Of a stretch of DNA of 64,000 nt, positions 45,001 to 57,000 are shown one piece after another. Position numbers: made by a program. Source of the stretch: Escherichia coli O157:H7 (GTDB taxonomy: Bacteria; Pseudomonadota; Gammaproteobacteria; Enterobacterales; Enterobacteriaceae); NCBI RefSeq assembly GCF_013167455.1, contig NZ_CP038328.1; one strand, written 5' to 3'. Each line of letters opens with the position of its first letter. Within the stretch, counting starts at the first letter, position 1.

Positions 45001-48000
45001 TCGGGTTGGCGATCGCCGTCGGGTCAAGCATGTTCATCAGGCTGGCAAAACTTTCAGCCTTACCATCATGCGGTGTTGCTGAAAGCATAATCAGCGTATC
45101 GCTGCGCCCGGCGAGCAGTTTTGCCAGTTTACTGCGTAACGAACTGGTTCCACGTTCTGCGACGTTATGGGCCTCATCAATGACAATAATATCCCACCAG
45201 GCATTTTCCAGATGGTGACGATATTCAATGTCTTGTTTCAGCGTATCGATGGAGATAATGGTCTTGTCAAAATAGTGGAACGGGTTGTGGTTGGTTGGGA
45301 TGCGGTTACGCACCTTTTGTAAACCAGCAGAATCCAGGCGGGTCAATGGGATCGCAAAACGGCTCCAGAACTCCTTCTGGAATTGTGTCAGCATCGATTT
45401 AACCGCCAGAACCAGAATACGTTTTCCGCGCCCACGACGGATCAGTTCCGAAACCAGAATACCGGCTTCCAGCGTTTTACCCAGACCAACAGCGTCGGCA
45501 ATGAGTATCCGCTGACGCGGTTGTGCCAGCGCCATCCGCGTAGGATCGAGCTGAAACGGCATGGAATCCATCGCCGCCAGATGACCAAAATGGACTTTAC
45601 TGTCTGTCGGTACGCGTTGGCGTAACTGACTTTCAATATACAACTGTGCCGCTTGATAATTGGCGGATTCATCTTCCACCAAATGCGTTTTTGCGGGATC
45701 CAGGATCTCTACTTTTTGTTCCAGTTTGGTCAGAAATAACCCTTCTTTACCGCGCACAAGCTCTGAAATACCATCGCAGGTCAGCAAATACCCACCATCA
45801 CCACTGTCATCCGCCCGGCGAATACGCCATTCGGCATCACGAATAACCACCCGCATACCAGGTGCATAATTTTGCTTATTCATCGGTTTTTCTGTCTATT
45901 TGGGGCAGTGGCGGTAACGTCATCCTGAAAAATGTGGCGCGGCACACTGCGATAAAAAAGAGGGCCTTAAAGATATCATGAAGGCCCCCGGCAAAGTGAC
46001 AAAATGGGAGGGAATGCGCATAAATTGCGCATGATTTTCAAACAAAAATTATTAAAAAGTGAGCTGGGTCAACTCCCCTGGAAGATATCCCCAGGGGAGC
46101 AATTATTTATCCAGCGATAATATAACTCCTAAGGTCATTACCCGGGGCAACAGCTCGCGCTCGCGTGTTTGCCAGCCGTTCAACTTGCTGCGGTACTCGC
46201 AGGGCAAAATCAAAGAAGGTATCTTCAATACAGCGCCAGTAGCTAAGCCCCATGTCGAGCAGGACATAATGCTGACTGCCATCGCTGAAGGTGACTGTCA
46301 GTTCTCGTCCATGCTCCGTACTCTGGTTATCCCCCGTTAACCAGCTAATTGCTCCCGGCCACGCAGGCCCCAGATATCCTTCTTCAAGTAAAGTGGTCAC
46401 AACCTGCTGACGATCTTCCTCATTAAGCCACGCGTTATAGAGAGCGTCGTGTTGGCGAGAGTTGTAATCCAATTTTTTGACGCAAACAGTGAGGCTGGCG
46501 CGTTCCGCCATTCCCTGTTCAACCAGCTCGGTTAAGATTTCACCTAACAAACGCGCCGTGAATGGGCTATTAAGATAACGATCGCTGTACTCAACATGCG
46601 TTATCTCTTTGTGGCGGGTAAATGCCTGCTTCCAGCCAGCGTGCTGTTGCGTGACTAACGACCAGAAACGCGAACCAAAACCTTCCAGCGGCCCGTCCAG
46701 TTGTTCACAGAGATTGATGCGCACCGCCCCGGTGGGTAAGGCGGGCAGTAAATCTTCTGCACTTAAGGTCTGACCCGAGAAGGTTTTTCCGGACGTTCCT
46801 TTAAGTGTCACTACTGGTGAAGACGCACTTTGTCCCCATAATTCACCAGGTGCAACGGTAGCGCTGTCGTCTGCGGCCCACTGTTGGCTTTGCCCTTCGC
46901 GAGTCACCTGCGCAAGCCAGCGCCCCTTTCCTTGCATGAGCTGCGCAGTGGCAATGGATTTCACTTGTAAGCGACCTCCCGGCATCGCCGCCAACGCGGA
47001 AAGCTGATGTCTGGAGCTATCAGTTAAGTTTGCCAGCGGCGTGGCCACCAGCAACTCAACATTCCCACCGGAGGAGGCAAACTGGAGCAACTCTTTAAAT
47101 AATGGCCATTGGGCAAAGTCCCACTGTTCCTGCGGCCCCGCAAGAACCAGCGAGCAGGAGTCATAAATCTCGCTGTTCAGGCATTGCGCAATACGTAAAC
47201 TCAGAGGGTTAGTTTCAACCCGGCTACCATCGCCGAAGTACTGATATTCTGGCGCGAGGTTAAGTCGCTGCAACCGTACATTGGTAAGCAGGGTTAATGC
47301 ATGGTGACGATCTAATCTGTTGACATAATGCTGACTGTCGTAGCTGAGCAAGCAGTGGTGACAGAATTTATCGCAACTGCAATCGAGCAATTTTCTGGCG
47401 TAATTAAAGACATCAGCCCAATGGTCGATCAATTGCACTGCATAACCTGCACCACCCGCATTATTGTCGTAAATGAAGATGGAATATCCGGTATAGCCAT
47501 TGATATCGCGCGCTTGCTGCGTCGTCACGCCCAGCTCAGTATTTTCGATACCCAATTTATGCGCTAACCCTTCACGCAAAGCGACCGCAAGGGAACGCGC
47601 GGCAACCTCATCACGGATCAACAGGCCATTATCATCATTGAGTTGCAGCTCAACCATATCTGTACGACTGCTATATCCCAACCACAGATCTTTATGCACA
47701 TGACCGTGGCACAATTTATTGCTCCCCTGACGATCGTTACTGCCCCCTCGCAACAGGTAATGCGTATTTTCCCTCTCTGGGTTCTTTAGATTTTCAGGGG
47801 TACGCTGGGGTTGAGTTTGAGATTCTGCCCGACCACATGAGAGGCAAATTGCGTAGCCGTGCCCAAATTCCCCTTCACTGAAGTGGAACAATTCCCCACT
47901 ATGGCTAAAACGGTAACGTCCTAGCCCAGCATCGGGTAAAGAAACCCACACCGAAGACGGTACAAGAACACGTGGATCTTTCCAGGGAAGTTGTGCAGGC

Positions 48001-54000: not shown

Positions 54001-57000
54001 TTTGTGAATAATCGGACTTAAGTGTTACTTTTTCATTGTTTGAATATTTATCAATTCTAGTATCCGTTATACCAGAAAGCATAATAATGCCTTGCTGAGC
54101 ACTCTCAGGTATAATATTAATATCGAAGTCTGCTGGTAAAACTACAACTTTACCGCTAAATAAAACCTCATCATTAACTATTCGCCGGACTTCTATCTGT
54201 CCTTTTGGCATTTCTGATGCGACAGAATACCAGGCATTATTACCTGAACGAATGGAACGCCAAAAAAGTTCTTTCTCCGGTACAATGCCATATTGCAGAT
54301 CCTTTTTCCAACCGATCTTCGGCCAGGCTCGATGGACAGGATAATCCGATTTAACCAGTTCAACTTCTGTCGATTTAATATAATATTCAATCGCAGAATC
54401 ATAAAGTTGCTGGGTGCGAATTGTACAAACAGCACCATCATGTAAAACAACGCTAAATACTCCACTTATTTTAGTTAAGCTGCGTTCACTGTTTTTCAGC
54501 AACCTTGGGATATCAAACTCACCTTCTCCACTAATATCTAAATGGCTATTTTTCGGTAGCGAAATAAACAGAGCATTTAGCCTGGAACTCACAGACCCCA
54601 TACCAACAAGTTTTAGCTGCGATTCACTCTCATTCATCGCTTCAAAAACCCAGGGAAGTTCTTCAGTAAGTTCATAACCGCCTTTTGGAATTGTGTGACC
54701 TAACAGAATTGGACCTTCATGAAGCGACAATGAGATTTCGGCCATTGCATCTGCACCAGAGAGTTTTTGCATCGCAATAGGTAATAACTCGACCCGCCAA
54801 TCTTGCTGCTCATAACGGCTTAGCATTGCCAACCTTGCCCCGCCATTTTTCCATTTTCCTGAAATGATGAGTCGGGTCTGCTCCGGCTGAATATGGCATT
54901 CAAACAAAGAGGTTAACTGTTCTGTACGCATTGTGGCCGGGAATCGGAACCGGGCATCGCAATACCAACTGTCATCAACATCGACCCAGATTCTTTCAAC
55001 CTGAAGACTACTTGCACTGCGTATTTCAGAAGATTGAGAAAGTAATCGCCTTACAATCTCTGCAGCATTCGCTTCGGGGAGAACGAGTGGAAGTTGAAGA
55101 TGCCAGTCTGGAGAGAGCTTACGTAATGCAGAAACGGGATCACTGCTATGAGGAGGATGCTCACTAAGTAATCGGCAGAGAGTCTCGCAGAATTCACCGG
55201 CTATTTCATAGACCAGTTCGTTTTGCATTGTGACAGGAATCGTATCGCCTAATTCTTGTGCAATTTTAGCGGCAGGATATTGAGATGATTGCCCACGAAG
55301 CGCCTGATATATCCTTCTGAAATAGGTAATCAAATAACCGCTCTCATTTTCAATCATGCGGATAGGCAAACCACCTTCACAAGCCAGTGTATGCAGATAA
55401 CCCGAAGCTTGTCCCAGGTTTCTTATCTTTCTTTTCCAGTAGCGAATGCCATCATTAACCAGCTTCTGTCGATGAACATACGGAACTTTCCAGTTAATAG
55501 AATCTAAAATTGTGTCCCATTTAGGGTGTCCGACCGTATGAGTCCGGCGGATAAACTCTGCGGCATATATGCTAAATAGAACATCGCTATAGGAAATGAA
55601 TATCGTTCTTGGATAACTACGGGGGGCATATGTACGCAGTAGTTCTGCCAAACTTTCGTACTCTGTATCAGTACAACGGTAAGCATATAACGCCCGTCCA
55701 TCAGCTCCGGATAATGAACGGCGACTAAAAAACATGTTAAGCCATTGCAAAAGTGGGTTAACTGGAGTTTTCACAAGCAACCTGCCTTCCTTTGATACAA
55801 TTCGTAACAGGTTACTATCATCATAAAAAAGCTCAACCCGATGAACTCGCTAAAAATGAGACAAATCATTTATATCTCGAAAAAACTTGTTACAATCATG
55901 AGCGCTACACCGAACTTAACCATATAAATTATGTGTGTTTTGTTTATTTTTTAAACGATTACAACTATCCATTATTTACACAGGTATCAAAATGTTAGCG
56001 CAGCTTTTTGAGCAGTTGTTTCAATCGATAGACTCTACACTGATCACCAATATTTTCATCTGGGCTGTTATATTCGTATTTTTATCAGCGTGGTGGTGTG
56101 ACAAAAAAAATATACATAGTAAGTTTAGAGAATATGCTCCAACCTTAATGGGGGCATTAGGTATTCTGGGTACTTTCATTGGTATTATTATTGGTTTACT
56201 CAATTTTAATACCGAAAGTATTGATACCAGCATCCCCGTATTATTAGGTGGCCTAAAAACAGCATTCATTACAAGCATTGTAGGTATGTTTTTTGCCATT
56301 TTATTTAATGGAATGGATGCTTTCTTTTTTGCCAATAAACGAAGTGCGTTAGCAGAAAATAACCCTGAATCTGTTACACCTGAACATATCTATCATGAAT
56401 TAAAAGAGCAGAACCAGACTCTGACTAAATTAGTCTCGGGTATTAACGGTGATAGTGAAGGTTCTCTTATTGCTCAAATAAAATTACTACGTACTGAGAT
56501 TAGCGATTCCTCGCAGGCACAATTAGCTAATCACACTCATTTCAGTAATAAGCTTTGGGAACAACTTGAACAATTTGCAGATCTAATGGCAAAAGGTGCT
56601 ACAGAACAAATTATTGATGCTTTGCGACAAGTCATTATTGATTTTAATCAAAATTTAACTGAACAGTTTGGTGAAAACTTTAAAGCTCTTGATGCCTCTG
56701 TAAAAAAACTTGTTGAGTGGCAGGGAAATTATAAAACGCAAATTGAGCAGATGTCAGAACAATATCAACAAAGTGTCGAGTCCCTGGTTGAAACAAAAAC
56801 TGCGGTTGCAGGGATTTGGGAAGAATGTAAAGAAATTCCTCTGGCTATGTCTGAACTGCGTGAAGTGCTTCAGGTGAACCAACATCAAATCAGCGAACTC
56901 TCCCGCCATTTAGAAACCTTTGTCGCCATCCGCGATAAAGCTACAACCGTATTACCTGAAATACAGAACAAAATGGCTGAAGTGGGTGAACTGCTGAAAT

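What the first reader, a model, noticed from the sequence alone, without database searches (positions are those of the whole stretch)
46107..55780. Two-gene module: 1119-aa domain-less protein coupled to a 2107-aa helicase/DUF1998 protein (Druantia type III-like)
The two genes overlap by 10 nt (ATG at 52428-52430, AGGAG RBS inside the upstream gene) and are separated from the SNF2 operon by a 223-bp gap with hairpins, so they form their own unit. A very large DUF1998 helicase paired with a large protein lacking recognisable domains is the architecture reported for Druantia type III (DruH + DruE). The assignment rests on size and domain order only.
Basis: partly seen in the sequence, partly recalled or inferred. 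Interest (0 to 1): 0.7.

Follow-up and report, generated by a model that had tools for sequence, protein, structure and literature searches.

The report
Known Druantia III phage-defence operon

Summary
The window is E. coli O157:H7 (100% identical to Sakai and EDL933). The finding lies in the SpLE6 / O-island 172 defence island. Both ORFs are real. The 1119-aa protein is DruH (PADLOC DruH3, 2555 bits, full length; NCBIfam YjiT family, 987 bits). The large protein is DruE (PADLOC DruE3, 2185 bits; Pfam DEAD, Helicase_C and MZB/DUF1998). Both are sequence-identical to deposited cryo-EM structures (9TUD; 9TU7-9TUC). Published work on this locus shows that druH and druE are each required in EDL933. 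It also shows that the near-identical druHE operons of E. coli ATCC 8739 and ECOR19, cloned alone, protect K-12 strains, so the pair does not need the downstream "SNF2 operon" (ARMADA II, armABCD), although the two systems synergise. One correction: DruE most likely starts at the ATG at 52421, giving 2104 aa and a 1-nt TGATG overlap, not at 52430 (2107 aa, 10-nt overlap). The mechanism is only partly settled. DruE is a 3'-to-5' DNA helicase that loads on exposed single-stranded or forked DNA. Current preprints describe DruH variously as an ssDNA binder, a 3'-5' exonuclease or a sensor. My alignment shows that the invariant DruH residues sit in the N-terminal domain, and that the published ssDNA/ATP pocket is conserved only in close relatives. 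Verdict: interpretation supported, already known, low interest.

The parts
52421..55780 (-). druH (ECs_5259 / Z5897), 1119 aa, TTG start; YjiT-family partner protein of type III Druantia
   Evidence: ORF. PADLOC DruH3 2554.9 bits over residues 3-1119. NCBIfam NF038336 YjiT_fam 986.8 bits against a cutoff of 150. PDB 9TUD 'DruH', 1119 aa, 2583.6 bits. Annotated at the same coordinates in Sakai.
46107..52421 (-). druE (ECs_5260 / Z5898), 2104 aa from the ATG at 52421 (the longest ORF starts at 52430 and gives 2107 aa). YprA/MrfA-like SF2 DNA helicase: DEAD aa 95-295, Helicase_C aa ~1069-1140, MZB (ex-DUF1998) aa ~1612-1691, then a C-terminal region of ~380 aa described in the literature as tandem PLD-like domains
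   Evidence: ORF. PADLOC DruE3 2184.9 bits. Pfam domains. PDB 9TU7-9TUC 4905.2 bits. Motifs GxGK at 118-121, DEAH at 251-254, R1135/R1138 and C1681/C1683/C1687/C1690 are present in 2104-aa numbering.
52432..52436 (-). AGGAG Shine-Dalgarno sequence for druE inside the 3' end of druH; with the TGATG stop/start overlap at 52423-52419 it indicates translational coupling
   Evidence: Sequence. The same AGGAG and TGATG are conserved in the Lelliottia orthologue.
55781..55991 (.). Divergent intergenic region between druH and zorA, the presumed native promoter region of druHE. The annotated zorA starts at 55992; the longest ORF starts at 55935
   Evidence: Sequence. Promoter-like hexamers on both strands: 5 found against 1.3 expected, consensus matches only. 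ZorA2 profile alignment begins at residue 20 of the long ORF. Sakai annotation.
45884..46106 (-). 223-bp spacer between druE and armA. It holds a 12-bp hairpin (46100-46072) 6 nt after the druE stop and a terminator-like 9-bp hairpin plus U6 (45989-45954)
   Evidence: Sequence. RNA fold -66.3 kcal/mol, z = -3.63. The simple terminator scan did not call these two stems: one loop is longer than 8 nt and the other has no U-tract.

Best explanation
This is the druHE operon, a type III (subtype III-A) Druantia anti-phage system of E. coli O157:H7. It sits on the SpLE6/OI-172 mobile island between Zorya II (zorABE, divergent) and ARMADA II (armABCD, downstream). The two genes are translationally coupled. 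DruE is a large YprA/MrfA-like SF2 helicase. It loads on exposed 3' single-stranded or forked DNA, such as phage replication or recombination intermediates, and unwinds it 3'-to-5' using ATP. DruH is an N-terminal helical domain, then six Ig-like domains, then a C-terminal helical domain; it engages the single-stranded DNA. Together they clear phage DNA without killing the cell and without needing host methylation. Shown for this protein pair, or for near-identical E. coli proteins: both genes are essential; the helicase motifs and MZB zinc site are essential; 3'-to-5' unwinding; dimerisation; no abortive infection; sufficiency of the two genes in K-12. Inferred or disputed: whether DruH acts as an ssDNA clamp released by an ATP drop, as a 3'-5' exonuclease through its N-terminal cleft, or as a protein sensor; and whether phage DNA is destroyed by DruE's own PLD-like domain or by partner nucleases (ZorE, RecBCD). 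My reading is that helicase loading plus DruH engagement of the 3' ssDNA end through the family-invariant N-terminal domain is the conserved core. On that reading, the PLD module and the ATP/ssDNA pocket are lineage-specific additions.
For: Identity: PADLOC DruH3/DruE3 full-length hits; NCBIfam YjiT family; identity to PDB 9TUD and 9TU7-9TUC; 100% DNA identity to EDL933 and Sakai; island annotation. Function: deletion of druH, druE or both sensitises EDL933 to Bas26. Cloned druHE from the near-identical E. coli ATCC 8739 and ECOR19 systems protects MG1655/K-12, is non-abortive and is methylation-independent; helicase and MZB mutants lose defence. 3'-overhang and fork unwinding with DNA-bound structures. 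Own analysis: the cited catalytic residues are all present in the window's proteins. DruH-DruE adjacency with overlapping stop/start persists down to 23% DruH identity. DruH invariants Y32, Y34, R35, E75, R79, G111, W115 and GGLP136-139 cluster in the N-terminal domain. By sequence order and each homologue's own numbering, they appear to match the P. aeruginosa residues R22/K28/E64 whose mutation abolishes defence. That mapping is an inference; the Pa sequence was not in my alignment.
Against: The four 2026 preprints disagree on the biochemistry. Hu et al. find that DruH binds ssDNA at an Ig5/C-terminal pocket, is inhibited by ATP, and that the system has no apparent nuclease module. Loeff et al. 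find DruH to be a 3'-5' exonuclease and DruE a PLD nuclease required for defence in the P. aeruginosa system. Wu et al. find nuclease activity in both proteins. Himpich et al. find no reproducible DruE nuclease activity, and find the PLD domains dispensable in EDL933 against Bas26. None of this was tested here. In my alignment the ssDNA/ATP pocket residues (Y670, N672, Y733, R1031, H1062, R1064, K1067) are kept only in relatives with >=48% identity. This argues against that pocket being the family-wide mechanism, but alignments at ~20% identity are uncertain.
Confidence: 0.93

Rival explanations
1. DruE (Z5898) is a DEAH-box RNA helicase whose cellular role is to regulate flagellar motility through fliC expression, the 'motility-associated O island' reading. 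On this view the pair is not primarily a defence system.
For: Xu et al. 2013 (PMC3681947) reported reduced flagellin, motility and fliC promoter activity in EDL933 delta-Z5898. Some RefSeq records now name the protein 'motility-regulating DEAH-box RNA helicase'.
Against: Himpich et al. found no effect of druE deletion on fliC mRNA or motility in EDL933. Their helicase methods list a 3'-overhang RNA substrate among those that showed no unwinding by DruE. The protein is a full-length DruE3 match sitting in a defence island, and deletion and cloning experiments show anti-phage activity.
Confidence: 0.04
2. druHE is not autonomous. It is a sub-module of one larger Zorya II - Druantia III - ARMADA II machine and needs the downstream SNF2/methyltransferase/YprA operon to work.
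For: In complete E. coli genomes the two units are found in almost the same number of genomes: druHE in 546 and armABCD in 535 of 5426. They are co-directional and only 223 bp apart. Both encode YprA-like helicases (DruE vs ArmC 34% identity over the RecA1 region). Strong synergy is reported. In strain ATCC 8739, Druantia III alone gave at least modest protection against only 3 of 66 phages.
Against: druHE cloned alone protects MG1655 against 38 phages and also protects K-12 deltaRM. The P. aeruginosa pair alone works in E. coli. DruH homologues at 33% and 23% identity have DruE next to them but no ARMADA. Hairpins, including a terminator-like one, lie in the gap.
Confidence: 0.03
3. Mechanistic rival inside Druantia III: defence is a degradative helicase-nuclease pathway. 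DruH trims 3' ends of forked phage DNA. This recruits DruE and breaks its autoinhibited dimer, and DruE's PLD domain then degrades both strands. The PLD nuclease is core, not accessory.
For: Loeff et al. report DruH 3'-5' exonuclease activity, a DruE-DruH holo-complex structure, and loss of defence with PLD pocket mutants D1740A, D1917A and R1918A in the P. aeruginosa system. Wu et al. see ATP/Mg-dependent cleavage of long DNA by E. coli DruE. The window's DruE carries DRY and HGR motifs in its C-terminal ~380 aa that probably match Pa D1917/R1918/Y1919 and H1999/R2001; this matching is by inspection, not by alignment to the Pa sequence.
Against: In EDL933 itself, DruE 1-1723 lacking both PLD domains restored protection against Bas26, and no reproducible nuclease activity was seen. 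Hu et al. describe no nuclease module. Subtype III-B DruE lacks PLD domains altogether. Dimerisation is reported as required for defence by two groups but as inhibitory by one.
Confidence: 0.35

Closest known systems
Type III-A Druantia (DruH-DruE) of E. coli EDL933 / ATCC 8739 / ECOR19 / NCTC 12923
   Same: It is the same system. The DNA is 100% identical to EDL933 and Sakai, and the proteins are identical to PDB 9TUD and 9TU7-9TUC. [quoted passage not shown]
   Different: Nothing of substance.
P. aeruginosa type III Druantia (PaDruH-PaDruE)
   Same: [quoted passage not shown]
   Different: Different phage spectrum: T2/T6 for Pa, against Drexlerviridae, Vequintavirinae and others (but not Tevenvirinae) for E. 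coli. The PLD pocket is essential in Pa but dispensable in EDL933. Residue numbering is shifted.
Druantia types I and II (DruA-E; DruM/F/G/E)
   Same: They share the signature DruE helicase. The window's DruE hits the DruE1 profile at 575 bits and DruE2 at 361 bits, mainly over RecA2 to MZB.
   Different: Types I and II have 4-5 genes and no DruH, and their DruE carries a single non-PLD nuclease-like domain. No DruA-D, DruF, DruG or DruM profile matched any neighbouring protein.
ARMADA type II (ArmA-D), the adjacent 'SNF2 operon' at 29636-45883
   Same: ArmC is also a ~2100-aa YprA-like helicase with an MZB-type region (DruE3 profile 347 bits). It gives direct, non-abortive defence and synergises with Druantia III.
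   Different: It has four genes including a SNF2 helicase, a PglX/type IIG-like methyltransferase and a UvrD-like helicase, with no DruH. ArmC is only 34% and 23% identical to DruE over two local segments and ends in an HNH-like region.
DISARM class 1 (DrmA, DrmB, DrmC, DrmD, DrmMI) and B. subtilis MrfA/YprA
   Same: DruE looks like a DrmA (helicase) + DrmB (DUF1998/MZB) + DrmC (PLD) fusion. It shows PDB similarity to MrfA/YprA 6ZNP (1.4e-19).
   Different: No methyltransferase and no SNF2 partner. Defence is methylation-independent. DISARM is reported to have the opposite unwinding polarity. MrfA is a 751-aa DNA repair helicase without the ~770-aa insertion between RecA1 and RecA2.
E. coli K-12 yjiT / yjiV of the immigration control region
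   Same: The family names derive from them: NCBIfam YjiT_fam and Pfam YjiT_N, YjiT_2nd and YjiV_N on DruH/DruE homologues. Wu et al. place DruH in the YjiT family.
   Different: From my own knowledge, not tested here, the K-12 genes are annotated as truncated remnants at a different chromosomal site. No K-12-type genome appeared among the megablast matches; all matches were >=95% identical and found in 546 of 5426 genomes.

Membership tests
Druantia type III | Signature protein DruE: a very large SF2 DExH helicase with a DUF1998/MZB zinc module | tested here: met
   PADLOC DruE3 PDLC00037 2184.9 bits, residues 9-2105 against profile 4-2051/2055. Pfam DEAD, Helicase_C and MZB. GxGK, DEAH and the four MZB cysteines are present.
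Druantia type III | DruH: a ~1100-aa YjiT-family protein specific to type III | tested here: met
   PADLOC DruH3 PDLC00041 2554.9 bits over the full profile. NF038336 986.8 bits against a cutoff of 150. Identical to PDB 9TUD.
Druantia type III | Two co-directional adjacent genes in the order druH then druE, without the DruA-D or DruM/F/G genes of types I and II | tested here: met
   ORF map and stop/start overlap. Neighbours match ZorA2/ZorB2/ZorE2 and DrmD-like, type IIG methyltransferase, YprA and GajB-like profiles, not other Dru proteins. The same order is found in three homologous loci.
Druantia type III | Anti-phage activity that requires both proteins | not testable with these tools
   [quoted passage not shown] Deleting either gene from the cloned ATCC 8739 druHE operon abolishes its protection of K-12.
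Druantia subtype III-A | Tandem PLD-like domains at the DruE C-terminus (absent in III-B) | tested here: inconclusive
   Neither Pfam nor a PDB sequence search finds a PLD family in residues 1721-2104; the only hit is the identical chain 9TU7. The ~380-aa C-terminal extension with DRY and HGR...DGS motifs is present. The solved structures of this identical protein describe PLD1/PLD2.
DISARM class 1 | Separate DrmA, DrmB and DrmC plus DrmD (SNF2) and DrmMI (methyltransferase) acting as one system | tested here: not met
   For druHE there is no methyltransferase or SNF2 gene in the unit. DrmA profiles hit DruE only weakly and locally (38 bits). The DrmD-like and DrmMI-like genes belong to the neighbouring armABCD operon.
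MrfA/YprA repair helicases | A ~750-aa helicase with a contiguous RecA1-RecA2 core, an OB fold and an MZB domain, acting in mitomycin C repair | tested here: not met
   Only local similarity to 6ZNP (71.7 bits, two stretches). In DruE, RecA1 (DEAD domain ends ~aa 295) and RecA2 (Helicase_C starts ~aa 1069) are about 770 aa apart. DruE belongs to the wider YprA-like family, not to the repair enzyme group.

The most novel reading that the evidence does not exclude
The family-wide functional centre of DruH may be its N-terminal domain. The invariant set Y32, Y34, R35, E75, R79, G111, W115 and GGLP136-139 has no match to any known nuclease or binding family, and its catalytic geometry is unresolved. 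The ssDNA/ATP pocket seen in the E. coli structures (N672, Y733, R1031, H1062, R1064, K1067) is kept only in enterobacterial relatives with >=48% identity, so it would be a clade-specific regulatory add-on. If so, DruH would carry a new type of 3'-end-processing active site, and this would reconcile the conflicting preprints.
Probability: 0.3. Interest if true: 0.4.

Novelty: already known. Interest (0 to 1): 0.1.

Why it matters
It confirms that a sequence-only reader can recognise a defence system from gene size, order and coupling. [quoted passage not shown] The system is also a current model for how helicases sense phage DNA structures. Nothing in the window adds a new system. The only open points are mechanistic: the role of DruH and the role of the PLD domains.

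Tried and rejected
- Pfam scan of DruH returned nothing significant in the tool's library. Newer Pfam families exist and were seen only as precomputed labels.
- Sequence search of the DruE C-terminal 384 aa against the PDB, to test PLD membership, found only the identical DruE chain and no PLD enzyme.
- The consensus terminator scan of the 223-bp gap did not call the two strongest hairpins and flagged weaker ones; RNA folding was used instead.
- Promoter-like hexamers in the druH-zorA spacer are consensus matches only and were not pursued.
- An Rfam scan of the whole window gave no match at gathering score.
- I considered predicting the DruH structure and rejected it as pointless, because experimental structures of the identical protein exist.
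- I considered a metagenome or genome-wide locus scan to quantify Druantia III / ARMADA co-occurrence. I rejected it as too costly, since plasmid experiments and three sampled distant loci already answer the dependence question.
- I considered reading the GC step between druH and druE as a recent recombination junction. I did not adopt it, because a smaller step recurs in Lelliottia and a faint one in a 33%-identity locus.

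
Full report
**Observation.**
- The six-frame ORF list contains both reported ORFs on the minus strand: 52421..55780 (1119 aa, TTG start) and 46107..52430 (2107 aa, ATG start).
- The junction reads ...GCAGGAGT ATG TCA TTG ATG GAC...
- AGGAG is at 52436-52432 and the first ATG at 52430-52428. The stop of the upstream gene (TGA) is at 52423-52421, and a second in-frame ATG at 52421-52419 shares its A with that TGA.
- The next gene downstream starts at 45883, so the spacer is 223 bp (45884-46106).
- Folded as RNA, the spacer forms a 12-bp perfect hairpin at 46100-46072 and a 9-bp hairpin at 45989-45960 followed by six U. 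The fold z-score is -3.63 and none of 200 shuffles fold as well.

**DruE start codon.** The downstream ATG at 52421 (2104 aa, 1-nt overlap) is the more likely start, for five reasons.
- The Sakai annotation uses it.
- Hu et al. state 1119 and 2104 residues.
- The residue numbers used in three papers (G118, K121, D251, E252, R1135, R1138, C1681, C1683, C1687, C1690) match the window's protein only when counted from that ATG.
- The Lelliottia orthologue has TTG instead of the upstream ATG but keeps TGATG.
- AGGAG is 1 nt from the first ATG and 10 nt from the second.

**Where the window comes from.** The 9.8-kb segment is 100% identical to E. coli O157:H7 EDL933, Sakai and many other O157:H7 genomes. 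It occurs in 546 of 5426 complete E. coli genomes, all at >=95% identity. In Sakai the genes are ECs_5259 and ECs_5260. They lie inside the annotated 'phage-like element SpLE6' (window ~28145-62292), next to SpLE5 and tRNA-Leu leuX. The rest of the window is ordinary E. coli backbone: fim operon, gntP, uxuAB, iadA and others.

**What the two proteins are.**
- The 1119-aa protein matches the PADLOC DruH3 profile PDLC00041 end to end (2554.9 bits). The large protein matches DruE3 PDLC00037 end to end (2184.9 bits).
- NCBIfam places the first in the STY4851/ECs_5259 (YjiT) family, 986.8 bits against a cutoff of 150.
- Pfam on DruE gives DEAD (aa 95-295), Helicase_C (~1069-1140) and the MrfA zinc-binding domain MZB, formerly DUF1998 (~1612-1691). 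The two RecA-like halves are thus separated by about 770 residues.
- Pfam on DruH gives nothing in the tool's library. Newer Pfam entries YjiT_N (PF27201) and YjiT_2nd (PF27205), and YjiV_N (PF27116) for DruE, are attached to homologues in the protein collection.
- Both proteins are identical to solved cryo-EM chains. DruH scores 2583.6 bits against 9TUD (self-score 2589.3). DruE scores 4905.2 bits against 9TU7-9TUC (self-score 4909.4). The differences are explained by the first residues or tag.
- Those entries were deposited with Himpich et al. 2026.

**Surroundings.** Upstream and divergent are ZorA2, ZorB2 and ZorE2 (1002, 346 and 584 bits), that is Zorya type II. Downstream and co-directional are four genes:
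- a DrmD-like SNF2 helicase (952 aa);
- a type IIG/PglX-like methyltransferase (1644 aa);
- a second YprA-like helicase (2113 aa);
- a GajB/UvrD-like helicase (704 aa).

Li et al. 2025 and Bell et al. 2025 name this four-gene operon ARMADA type II, armABCD. So the 'SNF2 operon' of the finding is a separate named system.

**Does the pair need the SNF2 operon?**
- In E. coli the two units are almost always found together: druHE in 546 genomes and armABCD in 535. Synergy is reported.
- Sufficiency of the pair is nevertheless shown experimentally. druHE of ATCC 8739 with its native promoter protects MG1655 against 38 phages and also protects K-12 deltaRM. The P. aeruginosa pair works alone in E. 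coli.
- My own sampling of distant DruH homologues agrees. At 63% identity (Lelliottia) the whole Zorya II-druHE-ARMADA array is kept.
- At 33% identity druHE is followed by GmrSD and a ZorA-like gene with no ARMADA. At 23% identity druHE stands alone beside integrases and a Vsr/Dcm pair.
- In all three loci druE follows druH with overlapping stop and start (1, 4 and 8 nt). The conserved unit is therefore the pair.

**Mechanism: what is established.** DruE is an ATP-dependent 3'-to-5' DNA helicase of the YprA/MrfA family. It loads on 3' overhangs, forks or exposed ssDNA. The helicase motifs I, II and IV and the MZB cysteines are required for defence. Defence is direct (no culture collapse at high MOI) and independent of host methylation.

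**Mechanism: what is disputed.**
- Hu et al. find DruH to be an ssDNA-binding protein. Its pocket at the Ig5/C-terminal interface is competitively blocked by ATP, and they see no nuclease module in the system.
- Loeff et al. find P. aeruginosa DruH to be a 3'-5' exonuclease with a putative site in the N-terminal helical domain. They find DruE to be an autoinhibited dimer whose PLD pocket is essential.
- Wu et al. see dimer-dependent nicking by DruH, cleavage of long DNA by DruE, and propose DruH as a sensor of phage baseplate proteins.
- Himpich et al. find no reproducible DruE nuclease activity. DruE 1-1723, without PLD domains, is fully active against Bas26 in EDL933.

**What my own analysis adds.**
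- I aligned 24 DruH homologues spanning 18-84% identity. The invariant and near-invariant residues cluster at the N-terminus: Y32, Y34, R35, E75, R79, G111, W115 and G136-G137-L138-P139, plus W226 and P231.
- By position in each homologue's own numbering (R22, R28 and E68 in several distant members), these most likely correspond to PaDruH R22, K28 and E64, whose mutation abolishes defence. This mapping is an inference; the Pa sequence was not in my set.
- In contrast, the E. coli ssDNA/ATP pocket residues (Y670, N672, Y733, R1031, H1062, R1064, K1067) are kept only in the five sequences with >=48% identity. They are already replaced (E672, W1031...) at 33-35% identity, where the alignment covers 99% of the protein.
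- DruH also diverges faster than DruE in every pair compared: 63 vs 77%, 33 vs 53%, and 23 vs 34%. This agrees with Wu et al..
- I therefore favour a core mechanism of helicase loading plus N-terminal-domain engagement or processing of the 3' ssDNA end. On this view the PLD module and the ATP pocket are lineage-specific layers. This is an inference, not a test.

**Rivals.**
- The older reading of Z5898 as a motility-regulating RNA helicase (Xu et al. 2013) survives in some RefSeq product names. It was not reproduced.
- The 'dependent sub-module' reading is refuted for sufficiency, as set out above.
- The degradative helicase-nuclease model remains a live mechanistic alternative.

**Verdict.** The system is already known in detail for this exact locus, so novelty is 'already known' and interest is low.

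Noticed in passing
window 59850-60857 (+); annotated ECs_5254 at 60006-60857: A gene just downstream of zorE matches NCBIfam NF045808 'phosphorothioated DNA-binding restriction endonuclease' (416.6 bits against a cutoff of 180) and PADLOC HNH / type IV mREase profiles. It looks like a fourth defence-type gene on the island. It is not mentioned in the OI-172 paper I searched.
   Followed up: partly
window 52421-59465 versus 29636-52421: There is a sharp GC step inside the translationally coupled operon. druH is 39.5% GC, like zorABE (37.6-38.5%), whereas druE is 48.9% and armABCD 50-53%. A smaller step recurs in the Lelliottia array (40.5 vs 46.1%) and fades in more distant loci. It is unexplained; possibilities are faster evolution of druH or an old module junction.
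   Followed up: partly
window 31747-38088 (-), ArmC residues ~2021-2096: The C-terminus of the ARMADA II YprA-like helicase ArmC hits the ZorE2 HNH endonuclease profile (5.8e-09) and NCBIfam ZorE. So the neighbouring system's nuclease module resembles the Zorya II effector encoded on the same island.
   Followed up: no
RefSeq records matched (e.g. NZ_CM167680.1, NZ_CP073976.1): Some recent annotations name DruE 'motility-regulating DEAH-box RNA helicase', following Xu et al. 2013. A 2026 preprint could not reproduce the motility phenotype, so the product name is probably misleading.
   Followed up: yes
E. coli records typed as plasmids, e.g. NZ_CP127005.1 (84.8 kb), positions 58033-84301: 18 matches to druHE and 23 to armABCD lie on plasmid-typed records, and at least one 85-kb record carries both units side by side. 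This fits the published idea that the array travels on satellite-phage-like mobile elements.
   Followed up: no
window 55935-55991: The longest zorA ORF (GTG at 55935, 569 aa) is 19 codons longer than the annotated ZorA (start at 55992, 550 aa). The ZorA2 profile aligns only from residue 20. The druH-zorA divergent spacer is therefore about 211 bp, not 154 bp.
   Followed up: partly
whole window 1-64000: No Rfam family reaches its gathering score anywhere in the window.
   Followed up: yes
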